NCBI RefSeq assembly: GCF_045037415.1
Contig: NZ_CP173438.1
Length of the DNA: 64,000 nt
Strand: one strand, 5' to 3'
Source of the DNA: Escherichia coli
Lineage (GTDB): Bacteria; Pseudomonadota; Gammaproteobacteria; Enterobacterales; Enterobacteriaceae
Below are positions 34,104 through 37,473 of this stretch, in pieces. Under the pieces are notes generated by a model. It saw only the letters and a program-made list of their open reading frames with translations, made no database searches and had not been told where the DNA came from. Both the position numbers and the translations under genes were made by a program. Within the stretch, counting starts at the first letter, position 1; every line of letters starts with the position of its first letter.

Positions 34104-37100
34104 TCAGAAGGTCACATTCAGCGTGGCCTGACCGTTATAGCCTTCAGCGCTGTTGCCGCTGACACTGTGGGCATAACCGGCCTGAACGCCCAGGGTGATA
34201 TTTTCCCGGACACGGGCTTCCAGTCCGGCCTGCAGGTCCAGTGACGTGCCATTCCGGGACGGTGAGAACGTCATGTTACTGCCGGCTGCGGCTGTACCCA
34301 TGCTCATGTCTCCCCGGGAGCTGAAGGTGCGGATAACAGAAGGCTGTACCCACCAGTTCACAGGCAGTTCACTCACACCGTGTTTTGTACTGTCGCGCAG
34401 GGTGTCACGGGATGAGGTGCCTTCACCAAAGGTCATATCGTTGTGGCTGCCCAGACGGAAACCGGCACGCACATGTTGTGCACTGCCATGCCCGAACTTC
34501 ACATAACCGGCGTTATCCTGGCCGTCATCCAGGGAAAGTCCCTGCCAGGTATACTGCAGTTGTGGCTCCAGCATCAGGTTGTCAGTGATACTGAATGGCA
34601 GACCGGTTTCCAGTGAGCCCTGCCAGCCCCGGCCCCGGGCGCGGAAGTCGTTATTGTCCGATGACGCTTTCATGCTGTGGCGGGTTCCCTGTGCCACAAT
34701 GTCAGCCCACAGGCCGGAGGACGTGTGTACCAGATTCAGGTATCCGCCCAGGCTGCCGGCATCATCCCGGACCGTGCCGGCACGGGAGCCGTCATCATCC
34801 TTAACATCAACGGAAGAATGGCCTGCAGCACCATACACTCCTGTCGTCAGTGACATACCGGCAACCTCTGTTCTGAGCAGGTCACCCTCCAGACGGACGA
34901 AGCCATAGCTGCCGCTGCTTTCCGGCGTGGCACCACGGACAATACCGCCGTTGTTATCGTGACCGAGATGGCCGCCCTGAATGCTGAGACGGACGCTGTT
35001 ATTTTCACCGTTTACACCGGTCTGATGGCTGCGGGAGCCTGCCAGAATCCGGTCATAGTCCATTGCCTGTGTCAGCATGGAGGCATACAGGGGGACTTCA
35101 GCACGATAAGCATTTTCACTGCGCAGATACCAGCTCTCATCACTGTCCCGGTTGAGGGTGTAGTTAAAGGCCCCGGCCTGCAACATATTCCCCTGGACAA
35201 AAGCCCCTTCCTCCGTGGTGGCACCGTTAATGGCCTCAACCACCTGAATACCCTTACCGGTGGTCGCCAGCCCCGTACCACTGTTGCCGGCGTTCACCAG
35301 ATTCAGGATGGTTTTTCCGGTTGCCCTGCCACCGTCAATGACCAGTCTGTCAGCATTGTTCTGCGCCATATCCGGGCGTACACGCAGGCTGATGGTGCCA
35401 TTCTGCCCGTTCAGGTTTTTCACCTGCAGAGTTGTCGGAACGAACTTCCCTGTGCGGGCGGAGGTGAAATGAATCTGTCCGGCATGGCTGAGGTCATCCA
35501 CCACCGACTGAACCGTGGCGTTATCGGGGATATTCCAGGTGGCACCGGATGTCAGGGTGACATTCGTGGGGTCAATGGCACCGTTCAGCACTGTGCTGCC
35601 GGTCAGCTTCAGGGCTGTACCGCGCTGAGCAATGACATCCGTGGTGACGGTACTGTCGTTCAGCGTCAGCGTGCCTTCATTCAGGTTGACGGCTTTCTGG
35701 GTGAGTGTGGTGTTGCTGACAGTGAGTGTGCCACTTCCTGATTTTTCCACGCTGCCGTTACCGGTAAGAGCGCCTCCCTGCAGGAGTGCATCGCCTTCAC
35801 GGATGGTCAGGGTATCGTTGTTCACCGTCTTCCCGGAAAGGGTAAGTGTGGCGCCGTTATTCAGCGTGGTGGTGCCCGCCAGTGTGCCGCCCCTGGCGGT
35901 GAACAGTCCGCCATTTACCGTGGTATCCGTGGCCGTATCACCGGCGTTCAGCGTGAATGAACTGCCTTTTTCCAGCATCAGGGCATCCGCCTGACCGCCT
36001 CCGATACTGAATGCCTTTCCGTCGCTCCGGGTACCACTGACAGCGGCACCGGAATCGGCCAGCAGTACACCGCCATTCCCCATGGATACGGTGGTGGCGG
36101 CACCACCGTTGCGGATATCCAGCGTTCCGCCATCATCCACACGGGTATTAGTGGCTGTGTGTCCGCTCAGCACATCCAGACGTCCGCCATTTTCCAGTAC
36201 GACATTATCAGCCTTACCCGCCACAACGGAGAATGCTCCCAGGCGGTTTGTGCCGGTGACGGTTGCAGCTGTACTGGTAACCAGTGCACCGCCCGTGTTC
36301 TGGGTGACATCAGACGCTTTACCGCCGGCATTCACCTGCAGCTTTCCTTTCTGGTTGATGGTGGTATGCGCGGCAGTTCCTCCTTCCTTAATCACCTGCC
36401 AGCCATCACGGTTTATCAGCGTCTCTGTTGCCGTGCCACCGTTGTGTACATACTGGTTACCCCCCTCCAGTCGGGTGTTATGTGCCTCTCCGTGTACCGT
36501 CTGGTCACCACCGGCGTAAATGAGGGTGTCCCGTGCCATCCCCGAAGACCAGATAACCTGCCGGCCATTTTTATTGATGGTGGTGGATTCAGCCGTCCCT
36601 CCGACCATCTGACCGCTGGACACATTTTCAGACTCCGGACCACCTTCTGCACCGGTGTTGACGATGGTTCCGGTTGCCAGTCCGCCATGTTTTATGGTCT
36701 GGTAACCATCCTGGTTAATAATTGTACCGGCAGCTTTCCCTCCCCCGTGTACCCACTGCTCACCTCTGTTATCCAGCGTGGTGTTCACCGCCAGTCCGTT
36801 AAGGCTCTGCCCTCCGCCATCACGAATAACCGTATCACTGGCAGTTCCTCCTGCCTGCACAATCTGACGACCATTTGCGGTGACAGTGGTGTTTCTGCCT
36901 GTGCCACCCGCTTTTATCCATTGCCCGCCGGTGTTTTCGTCACTGTCCGGCCCCAGCTCAAGCCCGGTACTGACAGTCACGCCATCAGCTGTTCCGGATA
37001 CAAACTGGTTGTCATGGTTTACCAGTGTTCCGCCATTCACTGTTTCACACGGGTGCACAACGATGTCAGCAGCCAGCACCGGGAGTGACGTGACCGCGGC

Positions 37101-37226
37101 AAGAGACAGTGCCACCGCCACACCGCCACGTTTACCCCGTGCGCGGGCCAGTTCGGAGGCAACCACGAAAGCGCCCGTAATGTGATTCCATACCAGCCTG
37201 TAGCAGGTATTCAGATGTCGTTTCAT
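34104..37226 (-). CDS. flu: Antigen 43 (Flu) self-associating autotransporter adhesin
   Basis: ORF 34104..37232; start at MKRHLNTCYRLVWNH...; long signal peptide, repetitive beta-helix passenger, C-terminal beta-barrel ending ...ATLNVTF; GC-rich. Confidence 0.95.
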   Translation of the reverse strand: MKRHLNTCYRLVWNHITGAFVVASELARARGKRGGVAVALSLAAVTSLPVLAADIVVHPCETVNGGTLVNHDNQFVSGTADGVTVSTGLELGPDSDENTGGQWIKAGGTGRNTTVTANGRQIVQAGGTASDTVIRDGGGQSLNGLAVNTTLDNRGEQWVHGGGKAAGTIINQDGYQTIKHGGLATGTIVNTGAEGGPESENVSSGQMVGGTAESTTINKNGRQVIWSSGMARDTLIYAGGDQTVHGEAHNTRLEGGNQYVHNGGTATETLINRDGWQVIKEGGTAAHTTINQKGKLQVNAGGKASDVTQNTGGALVTSTAATVTGTNRLGAFSVVAGKADNVVLENGGRLDVLSGHTATNTRVDDGGTLDIRNGGAATTVSMGNGGVLLADSGAAVSGTRSDGKAFSIGGGQADALMLEKGSSFTLNAGDTATDTTVNGGLFTARGGTLAGTTTLNNGATLTLSGKTVNNDTLTIREGDALLQGGALTGNGSVEKSGSGTLTVSNTTLTQKAVNLNEGTLTLNDSTVTTDVIAQRGTALKLTGSTVLNGAIDPTNVTLTSGATWNIPDNATVQSVVDDLSHAGQIHFTSARTGKFVPTTLQVKNLNGQNGTISLRVRPDMAQNNADRLVIDGGRATGKTILNLVNAGNSGTGLATTGKGIQVVEAINGATTEEGAFVQGNMLQAGAFNYTLNRDSDESWYLRSENAYRAEVPLYASMLTQAMDYDRILAGSRSHQTGVNGENNSVRLSIQGGHLGHDNNGGIVRGATPESSGSYGFVRLEGDLLRTEVAGMSLTTGVYGAAGHSSVDVKDDDGSRAGTVRDDAGSLGGYLNLVHTSSGLWADIVAQGTRHSMKASSDNNDFRARGRGWQGSLETGLPFSITDNLMLEPQLQYTWQGLSLDDGQDNAGYVKFGHGSAQHVRAGFRLGSHNDMTFGEGTSSRDTLRDSTKHGVSELPVNWWVQPSVIRTFSSRGDMSMGTAAAGSNMTFSPSRNGTSLDLQAGLEARVRENITLGVQAGYAHSVSGNSAEGYNGQATLNVTF

Positions 37227-37417
37227 CAGCATTTCCTTAATCAGAGTGAGGGTGAATAAAAAAGCCGGTATCCACAGATGTGGATACCGGCAGGTAAAGG
37301 GTTACAGTGCCGGAGGTCCGGCTGACGGAAGTTTCTGACGTGTGGCTCTGTTGTTCCCTGAATCTCATGTCTGTGTGTATCTGCGCACGTTGCTAACAGG
37401 AGTTATTATTAGCATAA

Positions 37418-37453
37418 CGATCGATATTAACGATCGGTAAAATGGGTATTGAT
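37418..37453 (-). promoter_or_regulatory. Cluster of three GATC (Dam) sites upstream of the antigen 43 gene: candidate OxyR/Dam phase-variation switch
   Basis: GATC at 37418..37421, 37431..37434 and 37450..37453 in the 240-bp gap between the yeeP-like stop and the flu start. Confidence 0.6.
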
Positions 37454-37473
37454 CGTTTTATTCTTTTATCAAG

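What the first reader, a model, noticed from the sequence alone, without database searches (positions are those of the whole stretch)
34104..37460. Antigen 43 autotransporter with an upstream triple-GATC cluster consistent with Dam/OxyR phase variation
The 1040-aa autotransporter is unmistakably antigen 43. About 190 to 225 bp upstream of its start codon there are three closely spaced GATC sites. In the characterised agn43 switch, three GATC sites inside the OxyR operator are differentially methylated to give ON/OFF phase variation, so this copy is probably phase-variable.
Basis: partly seen in the sequence, partly recalled or inferred. Interest (0 to 1): 0.45.

Follow-up and report, generated by a model that had tools for sequence, protein, structure and literature searches.

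The report
Known antigen 43 Dam/OxyR phase switch

Summary
A 1040-aa Ag43 autotransporter lies on the minus strand (34104..37226). Three GATC sites (37451, 37432, 37419) sit 193-228 bp upstream of its ATG. They align column for column, with the same 19/13-bp spacing, to the three GATCs of the characterised K-12 agn43 (flu) regulatory region. They are invariant in all 13 alleles compared.

The first GATC coincides with the K-12 isrC start and with the 5'-RACE start site mapped in ST131 strain EC958 (228 bp upstream of the ATG). Downstream lies the IsrC/IS102 leader RNA (Rfam 258 bits) with its terminator hairpin.

The 6.25-kb locus is 99.97% identical to strain 83972. In that strain, and in CFT073 and EC958, an oxyR mutation derepresses this operon (PMC4807369).

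The switch probably controls more than agn43. The transcription unit appears to continue through a 5'-truncated yeeR into irmA, ending at a terminator at 32298.

Points specific to this allele:
- The -10 hexamer is AAGAAT, where the other 12 alleles have TAGAAT.
- One OxyR consensus base is lost (CTAT to CCAT).

Phase variation itself cannot be shown from sequence.

Verdict: already known, low interest.

The parts
37483..37488 (-). -35 hexamer TTGTCC of the agn43 promoter
   Evidence: It sits 17 bp upstream of the -10 hexamer and is identical in K-12. TTG is invariant in all 11 aligned alleles. The promoter assignment is by homology and spacing relative to the mapped start site.
37460..37465 (-). 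-10 hexamer AAGAAT (TAGAAT in other alleles)
   Evidence: The window has A at 37465. K-12, EC958, CFT073 agn43a and nine other alleles have T. The simple sigma-70 scan no longer calls this promoter: my count is 8 of 12 matches, below the scan's cutoff of 9.
37454..37454 (-). Inferred transcription start (G of GATC-I)
   Evidence: The K-12 isrC annotation starts at the homologous G. [quoted passage not shown] The EC958 leader has the same length as the window's.
37451..37454 (.). GATC-I (Dam site)
   Evidence: Found. Aligned to K-12 GATC-I and invariant in 11 alleles.
37432..37435 (.). GATC-II (Dam site), 19 bp from GATC-I
   Evidence: Found. The spacing is the same as in K-12.
37419..37422 (.). 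GATC-III (Dam site), 13 bp from GATC-II
   Evidence: Found. The spacing is the same as in K-12.
37420..37456 (-). OxyR operator, best register of the ATAGnTnnnAnCTAT-N7-ATAGnTnnnAnCTAT consensus (13 of 20 matches)
   Evidence: K-12 scores 14 of 20 in the same register. The wider 45-bp block scored as 'operator' (37415-37459) has 29 of 45 columns invariant across 11 alleles, against 44 of 123 in the mid-leader. Assignment as the OxyR site rests on homology to the K-12 site described in the literature, not on the consensus score.
37251..37456 (-). agn43 leader RNA (Rfam RF00124, IS102 = IsrC)
   Evidence: Full-length match, 206 of 206 model positions, 258 bits against a gathering score of 46. 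Fold z-score is -3.9.
37258..37291 (-). Intrinsic terminator in the leader: 12-bp stem, loop ATCT, then TTTTTT
   Evidence: Found. 29 of 34 columns are invariant in 11 alleles. [quoted passage not shown]
37232..37238 (-). Shine-Dalgarno region AAGGAAA
   Evidence: Read directly from the sequence. Invariant in the alignment.
34104..37226 (-). agn43 CDS: 1040-aa Ag43 autotransporter, Ag43a-type
   Evidence: Domains found are ESPR signal peptide, AIDA repeats, AC_1 autochaperone and beta-barrel. The passenger differs at 4 of 501 positions from PDB 4KH3. The protein is identical to WP_000820373.1, as annotated in SK1144, 463 and 83972.
34059..34083 (-). Palindromic hairpin after the agn43 stop codon, carrying 2 GATC and no T tail
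   Evidence: It is not called as a terminator.
32882..34011 (-). 5'-truncated yeeR (deletion junction at 34009-34011)
   Evidence: blastn against EC958 and CFT073. Annotated as an incomplete pseudogene in SK1144, 463 and 83972.
32351..32806 (-). irmA (interleukin receptor mimic protein), probable last gene of the unit
   Evidence: Annotated as IrmA family protein WP_000581502.1 in matching genomes. The agn43-yeeR-irmA operon was shown by RT-PCR in EC958 (PMC4807369).
32298..32326 (-). First terminator-like site downstream of agn43 on this strand: 12-bp stem plus T run

Best explanation
This is the standard agn43 epigenetic switch, in an Ag43a-type allele on a pheV-type genomic island of an extraintestinal E. 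coli.

A sigma-70 promoter (-35 TTGTCC, -10 AAGAAT) starts transcription at or next to the G of GATC-I (37454). The OxyR operator overlaps the start site and the first ~40 transcribed bases, and it contains all three GATCs.

- When the GATCs are unmethylated, OxyR binds, blocks transcription and shields the sites from Dam. This is the OFF state, and it is heritable.
- When Dam methylates the sites first, after replication, OxyR cannot bind and the promoter fires. This is the ON state.

Transcripts then meet the IsrC leader terminator (37291-37258). Those that read through give the agn43 mRNA. They probably continue through the truncated yeeR into irmA, as far as the terminator at 32298.

Shown here: the anatomy, its homology to K-12, and near-identity to a strain in which OxyR repression was demonstrated. 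Inferred: OxyR binding to this exact operator, differential methylation, switching, and co-transcription of irmA across the deletion junction.
For: - The three GATCs, their 19/13-bp spacing and their distance to the promoter are identical to K-12, with no indels.
- The GATCs are invariant in 11 aligned alleles, including a Cah-type allele with unalignable flanks. 29 of 45 operator columns are invariant, against 36% in the mid-leader and 13% upstream.
- The start site is consistent between the K-12 isrC annotation and EC958 5' RACE at 228 bp (PMC4807369).
- The Rfam IS102/IsrC leader matches full length at 258 bits, with its terminator.
- Ag43 is intact and has all its domains.
- The locus is 99.97% identical to strain 83972 over 6251 bp. 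The 91-bp promoter/operator is at least 99% identical in 400 of 5426 complete E. coli genomes.
- PMC4807369 reports that oxyR deletion raises agn43 121-fold and irmA 13-fold in EC958, and derepresses IrmA in 83972 and CFT073.
- The mechanism is stated in PMC2909390, PMC3764049, PMC13337833 and PMC4872104.
- No terminator-like site lies between the agn43 stop and the end of irmA.
Against: - The -10 hexamer has lost its first T (37465 A, where all 12 other alleles have T), so the core promoter falls below the simple consensus threshold.
- The first OxyR half-site has CCAT instead of CTAT (37444). The consensus match drops from 14 to 13 of 20, and that score occurs at 22 sites in the window by composition alone.
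- The 83972 oxyR result was read out as IrmA protein, and 83972 may carry other irmA copies.
- dam and oxyR are not in the window. They are assumed present because the window is E. coli chromosome.
- The primary footprint papers (Haagmans 2000, Waldron 2002, Wallecha 2002) were not available, so the exact operator limits rest on secondary statements and my recollection.
Confidence: 0.88

Rival explanations
1. The switch is present but altered or degenerate in this sub-allele. The -10 T-to-A change and the CTAT-to-CCAT change in the OxyR half-site shift it towards low ON-level expression, or towards a changed ON/OFF bias. In the extreme it would be a silent or locked copy rather than a normally phase-varying one.
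For: - Positions 37465 and 37444 are the only two differences from CFT073 agn43a between -35 and the ATG, and both fall in functional elements.
- 37465 A is unique among the 13 alleles compared.
- The promoter scan fails the window allele; by my count of matches, K-12's TAGAAT would pass it.
Against: - The exact 91-bp sequence is kept in about 400 complete genomes across at least ST131 and strain 83972.
- The downstream Ag43 ORF is intact, which argues against a dead promoter.
- A-11 and T-7 of the -10 hexamer, its most important bases, are retained.
- The CTAT element varies in other alleles too: ATAT in 33E, and absent in the Cah type.
- IrmA is OxyR-repressed, and expressed on derepression, in 83972 (PMC4807369).
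Confidence: 0.15
2. The GATC cluster is conserved for a reason other than OxyR/Dam competition. For example, the two CGATCG palindromes could form a hairpin in the IsrC leader RNA, or the cluster could be a SeqA-binding site.
For: - The Rfam IS102 consensus pairs the GATC-II and GATC-III regions in a 9-bp stem.
- The fold prediction keeps the 6-bp CGAUCG stem.
- seqA mutants alter Ag43 switching (PMC13337833).
Against: - In the window the stem extension is broken by a non-compensated change, marked as non-canonical pairs.
- GATC-I is outside that hairpin and is equally invariant.
- Genetics in K-12 assign the sites to Dam and OxyR (PMC2909390, PMC3764049).
Confidence: 0.03
3. The three GATCs are a chance cluster in an AT-rich intergenic region and have no regulatory role.
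For: Triple clusters within 36 bp are expected 0.63 times per window by random placement.
Against: Exact positional homology to the K-12 sites, and invariance across alleles that have diverged by up to about 50% in the flanks.
Confidence: 0.01

Closest known systems
E. coli K-12 agn43 (flu, b2000) Dam/OxyR phase-variation switch with the isrC leader
   Same: - Same -35 hexamer.
- Same three GATCs at the same spacing, and the same start-site position.
- Same leader RNA family and terminator.
- Same upstream GTPase (yeeP-type) and the same downstream yeeR neighbourhood.
- The protein is 88% identical.
   Different: - The regulatory region is about 88-90% identical. The window has -10 AAGAAT against TAGAAT, five substitutions in the operator, and a 4-bp insertion before the SD.
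- The passenger domain is Ag43a-type.
- K-12 lacks irmA.
Ag43a (c3655) of UPEC CFT073, PAI-pheV; structure PDB 4KH3
   Same: - Same island context: nan genes, IS66, YfjI, GTPase, agn43.
- Same protein length of 1040 aa. The passenger differs at 4 of 501 residues from 4KH3.
- The regulatory region differs at only two positions between -35 and the ATG.
   Different: - 40 amino-acid differences overall, mostly in the C-terminal half; G60C is among the N-terminal ones.
- CFT073 has two IS66 elements between agn43a and yeeR, which block irmA transcription (PMC4807369). In the window those elements and the 5' 1387 nt of yeeR are deleted.
agn43-yeeR-irmA operon of ST131 strain EC958 (Moriel et al. 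2016, PMC4807369)
   Same: - Same gene order.
- The leader is identical from GATC-III to the ATG.
- irmA region 99% identical at the DNA level; same IrmA protein accession, WP_000581502.1.
- OxyR repression and the start site were mapped experimentally in this strain.
   Different: - A different agn43 allele: 1039 aa, 93% protein identity.
- yeeR is intact in EC958.
- The window differs from EC958 at six positions in the promoter/operator, the -10 change among them.
Salmonella gtr and opvAB OxyR/Dam phase-variation systems; phage Mu mom
   Same: The same principle: OxyR and Dam compete at GATC-containing OxyR half-sites (PMC2909390, PMC4856963).
   Different: Those systems use paired or alternative OxyR sites upstream of the promoter, where OxyR also acts as an activator. 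agn43 has one repressor site overlapping the start site (PMC2909390).

Membership tests
Ag43/Cah self-associating autotransporter | Sequence membership: NCBIfam equivalog NF033177 above its curated cutoff | tested here: met
   1858 bits against a cutoff of 1200. PGAP names the identical protein agn43.
Ag43/Cah self-associating autotransporter | Domain order: extended signal peptide, beta-helical passenger, autochaperone, beta-barrel | tested here: met
   ESPR at residues 6-49, AIDA repeats, AC_1 at 574-691, Autotransporter at 771-1016. The passenger matches the solved Ag43a structure 4KH3.
Ag43/Cah self-associating autotransporter | Autoaggregation by passenger self-association | not testable with these tools
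   Inferred from about 99% identity to the Ag43a passenger. The G60C change has unknown effect.
agn43-type Dam/OxyR epigenetic phase-variation switch | Three GATC sites homologous to those of the characterised K-12 operator, with the same spacing | tested here: met
   Spacing is 19 and 13 bp in both.
agn43-type Dam/OxyR epigenetic phase-variation switch | A single OxyR site overlapping the start site of a sigma-70 promoter, giving repressor geometry | tested here: met
   The start site falls at GATC-I by the K-12 annotation and by EC958 RACE (PMC4807369). The -35/-10 hexamers have 17-bp spacing. Caveat: the -10 hexamer is AAGAAT.
agn43-type Dam/OxyR epigenetic phase-variation switch | Operator sequence able to bind OxyR | tested here: inconclusive
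   13 of 20 consensus matches against 14 of 20 in K-12. Scores of 13 or more occur at 22 sites in the window by composition. Binding is supported only by homology and by oxyR-mutant data in 83972, EC958 and CFT073 (PMC4807369).
agn43-type Dam/OxyR epigenetic phase-variation switch | dam and oxyR present in the host | not testable with these tools
   Neither gene is in the 64-kb window. The window is 100% identical to E. coli chromosomes, in which both are core genes (general knowledge).
agn43-type Dam/OxyR epigenetic phase-variation switch | Heritable ON/OFF subpopulations with methylated versus unmethylated GATCs | not testable with these tools
   Needs single-molecule methylation reads or reporter assays.
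IsrC / IS102 leader RNA (Rfam RF00124) | Covariance-model match above gathering score, ending in an intrinsic terminator just upstream of the agn43 SD | tested here: met
   258 bits against 46, full length. Terminator at 37291-37264 plus T6.
agn43-yeeR-irmA operon | Same-strand order agn43, yeeR, irmA with no intervening terminator or IS | tested here: met
   The order is kept and no IS intervenes. There is no terminator-like site until 32326-32298. yeeR is 5'-truncated, so only agn43 and irmA are intact.
agn43-yeeR-irmA operon | Co-transcription | not testable with these tools
   Shown by RT-PCR in EC958 only (PMC4807369). For the deleted arrangement it is inferred.

The most novel reading that the evidence does not exclude
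The sub-allele found here is shared with 83972, SK1144 and roughly 400 complete genomes. It may be a retuned switch. The only two changes from CFT073 agn43a between -35 and the ATG hit the -10 hexamer (T to A) and an OxyR consensus base (CTAT to CCAT). In the same lineage, an IS66-associated deletion brought irmA back under the agn43 promoter. Together these changes could alter the ON level or the ON/OFF bias, and could make secretion of the cytokine-receptor mimic IrmA phase-variable in this lineage, unlike at the CFT073 agn43a locus.
Probability: 0.2. Interest if true: 0.3.

Novelty: already known. Interest (0 to 1): 0.1.

Why it matters
Ag43 drives autoaggregation, biofilm formation and bladder persistence in uropathogenic E. 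coli. Its stochastic ON/OFF expression confounds expression studies (PMC3764049) and vaccine thinking.

For annotation, three points are useful:
It comprises the promoter, the OxyR/Dam operator, the IsrC leader with its terminator, agn43, and probably irmA.
- This allele carries two small regulatory substitutions that could be tested cheaply.
- Nothing here opens a new question. The mechanism, the leader RNA, the operon and the allele family are all published.

Tried and rejected
- **OxyR consensus scoring.** I scored the Toledano OxyR consensus across the whole window, hoping for an independent test of the operator. The agn43 site scores 13 of 20, but 22 sites reach 13 or more, so the consensus alone is uninformative.
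- **GATC clustering statistics.** These are not decisive: 0.63 clusters are expected and 4 are observed. Two of the others turned out to be IS4-type ends and one lies inside kpsF, so they are not further agn43-like switches.
- **Extended -10 promoter.** I considered an alternative TGaTAAAAG (37471-37463) created by the window's substitutions. I rejected it as the main promoter because it lacks the final T and would leave only 14 bp to the -35 hexamer. The EC958 RACE start also fits the AAGAAT register.
- **Primary footprint and mutagenesis papers.** I tried to open PMC135096, PMC2838033, PMC4135670, PMC1594586 and PMC3879109. None is held.
- **Methylome evidence.** The ST131 methylome paper (PMC4659465) does not report the methylation state of the agn43 GATCs in its main text.
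- **RNA structure.** I considered that GATC conservation might reflect RNA structure only. GATC-I lies outside the hairpin, and the stem extension is not maintained in the window.
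Full report
**Observation**

The minus strand carries an ORF ending at 34104. The ORF listing opens it at ATG 37232, but every homologue starts two codons later with MKRHLNT, at ATG 37226.

GATC occurs at 37419, 37432 and 37451, which is 193-228 bp upstream of the ATG. So the description is accurate. Its upper coordinate (37460) stops just short of the promoter.

Counting alone does not make the cluster remarkable. With 179 GATCs in 64 kb, random placement gives 0.63 triple clusters of 36 bp or less per window. The window has four.

**What the gene is**

- NCBIfam's Ag43/Cah equivalog scores 1858 bits against a cutoff of 1200.
- Pfam finds the extended signal peptide, AIDA repeats, the type-1 autochaperone and the beta-barrel, in that order.
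- The passenger differs at 4 of 501 positions from the crystallised Ag43a of CFT073, PDB 4KH3.
- The whole protein is 88% identical to K-12 Flu, 93% to the EC958 allele, and differs at 40 residues from CFT073 Ag43a.
- It is identical to WP_000820373.1, as annotated in strains SK1144, 463 and 83972.

**What the GATC cluster is**

I aligned the region with K-12 MG1655. I then aligned it with ten alleles sampled down the whole identity range of 1910 E. coli records, and with EC958 and CFT073.

- The three GATCs fall in the same columns as the three K-12 sites.
- The spacing is the same, 19 and 13 bp.
- There is no indel between the -35 hexamer and the last GATC.
- The sites are invariant in all 11 aligned sequences. 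One of these is a Cah-type allele in which only the -10/operator block and the terminator-to-ATG block can still be aligned.
- In the 45-bp block I scored as the operator (37415-37459), 29 columns are invariant. That compares with 44 of 123 in the middle of the leader and 11 of 82 upstream.

**Promoter, start site and leader**

The K-12 annotation starts isrC at the G of GATC-I. In ST131 strain EC958, 5' RACE placed the start of the agn43 mRNA 228 bp from the start codon (PMC4807369). The EC958 leader is the same length as the window's, and 37226 + 228 = 37454, which is the G of GATC-I.

Upstream are TTGTCC (37488-37483), a 17-bp spacer and AAGAAT (37465-37460).

Rfam RF00124 (IS102, the IsrC RNA) matches 37456-37251 at full length with 258 bits. 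It ends in a 12-bp-stem terminator followed by T6 (37291-37258), 31 nt before the ATG. This terminator is the most conserved block of the region, with 29 of 34 columns invariant. [quoted passage not shown] 2014).

**Mechanism**

Published work on K-12 establishes the following:
- The three GATCs overlap the single OxyR repressor site.
- OxyR bound to unmethylated DNA represses transcription and shields the sites from Dam.
- Dam methylation abrogates OxyR binding.
- dam mutants are locked OFF, and oxyR mutants or dam overexpression are locked ON (PMC2909390, PMC3764049, PMC13337833, PMC4872104).

For UPEC alleles, PMC4807369 reports a 121-fold rise of agn43 and a 13-fold rise of irmA transcripts in EC958 oxyR. 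It also reports derepression of IrmA in CFT073 oxyR and 83972 oxyR.

The window is 99.97% identical to strain 83972 over 6251 bp, from the upstream GTPase gene to beyond irmA. The differences are one mismatch and one 1-bp indel. I therefore regard OxyR repression of this locus as close to demonstrated. Dam/OxyR phase variation I regard as a strong inference from homology. Heterogeneity itself cannot be shown from sequence.

**The unit is larger than the flagged gene**

PMC4807369 defined an agn43-yeeR-irmA operon. In the window, agn43 is followed by three features:
- a palindromic hairpin without a T tail (34083-34059);
- a yeeR lacking its first 1387 nt;
- an intact irmA (32806-32351).

The first terminator-like site on this strand is at 32326-32298.

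The deletion junction (34009-34011) coincides with the point where IS66 elements sit downstream of agn43a in CFT073. An IS-associated deletion probably removed the IS and the 5' part of yeeR. In CFT073 that IS insertion abolishes IrmA expression from the agn43a locus (PMC4807369). Here nothing obvious separates irmA from the agn43 promoter, so IrmA is probably phase-variable too. This is an inference.

**Allele-specific details**

Between -35 and the ATG the window differs from CFT073 agn43a at two positions only:
- 37465 turns the -10 from TAGAAT into AAGAAT. A at this position is unique among the 13 alleles compared.
- 37444 turns the CTAT element of the first OxyR half-site into CCAT.

The match to the OxyR consensus drops from 14 to 13 of 20. 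That score has little discriminating power, because 22 sites in the window reach 13 or more.

The exact 91-bp promoter/operator occurs at 99% identity or more in 400 of 5426 complete genomes, including O25b:H4-ST131 strains and 83972. It is therefore a lineage variant and not a sequencing error. Whether it changes the ON level or the switching bias is untested. This is the only mildly novel reading, and I give it about 0.2.

**Comparison with known systems and verdict**

The anatomy meets every sequence-testable defining feature of the agn43 Dam/OxyR switch, the IsrC leader family and the Ag43 autotransporter family. Three features could not be tested here: OxyR binding, differential methylation, and the presence of dam and oxyR.

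The gene is already named agn43 by PGAP in hundreds of genomes. The mechanism, leader, operon and allele class are all published.

- Novelty: already known.
- Interest: 0.1.

Noticed in passing
window 1746..3170 (+), with flanks 1735-1745 and 3171-3181: A complete IS4 copy of 1425 bp, with a transposase ORF at 1812..3161 (NF033592) and an 11-bp target duplication CAGCTAGGCTG. It has inserted into the 5' hairpin of an STnc490-like RNA element (Rfam hit 3165..3288), between glcA and a gspK remnant. Its left end carries a triple GATC cluster (1753/1764/1776).
   Followed up: partly
window ~51860..51930 (-): A remnant of an IS4-like end, homologous to 1746-1790. It carries another triple GATC cluster (51891/51895/51903) and is annotated in related genomes as a degraded 'transposase domain-containing protein'. 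Two of the window's four tight GATC clusters are therefore IS4-type ends. Dam control of transposition is a possibility that I did not test.
   Followed up: partly
window 23517..23552: A fourth tight triple GATC cluster, lying inside the kpsF coding sequence of the group 2 capsule locus. I did not look for any regulatory reading.
   Followed up: no
window 37474..38472 (-), indel near 37601: The YeeP/YfjP-type GTPase gene upstream of agn43 has a 1-bp insertion relative to SK1144, 83972 and CFT073. The frameshifted ORF now runs on to a TAG at 37476-37474, between the -35 and -10 hexamers of the agn43 promoter. Strain 463 has the same change, annotated as a frameshifted pseudogene.
   Followed up: yes
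window 34009..34011 and 32882..34011 (-): A deletion relative to EC958 (1415 bp) and CFT073 (about 6.9 kb, including two IS66 elements). It removes the first 1387 nt of yeeR. The junction is exactly at the CFT073 IS66 insertion point, 92 bp after the agn43 stop. The same arrangement is found in 83972, SK1144 and 463.
   Followed up: yes
window 37047..37049 (-), Ag43 codon 60: Gly60 is replaced by Cys (mature passenger residue 8) relative to K-12, EC958, CFT073 and PDB 4KH3. The change is shared with SK1144 and 463. A lone cysteine is unusual in an autotransporter passenger, and its effect is unknown.
   Followed up: partly
window 34059..34083 (-): A perfect 10-bp-stem palindrome containing two GATC sites, 20 nt after the agn43 stop codon and without a T tail. 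It could be an mRNA-stabilising or processing hairpin inside the operon.
   Followed up: no
window 6573..6611 (+): A JUMPstart (ops-containing) element, Rfam RF01707 at 53.6 bits, in front of the kpsM-type ORF of the capsule region. This is expected for RfaH-dependent group 2 capsule operons.
   Followed up: no
window 37429..37457 (+): The terminator scan calls an antisense hairpin formed by the AACGATC...GATCGTT dyad of GATC-I and GATC-II, followed by a T-rich tract. It most likely just reflects the dyad symmetry of the OxyR operator.
   Followed up: no
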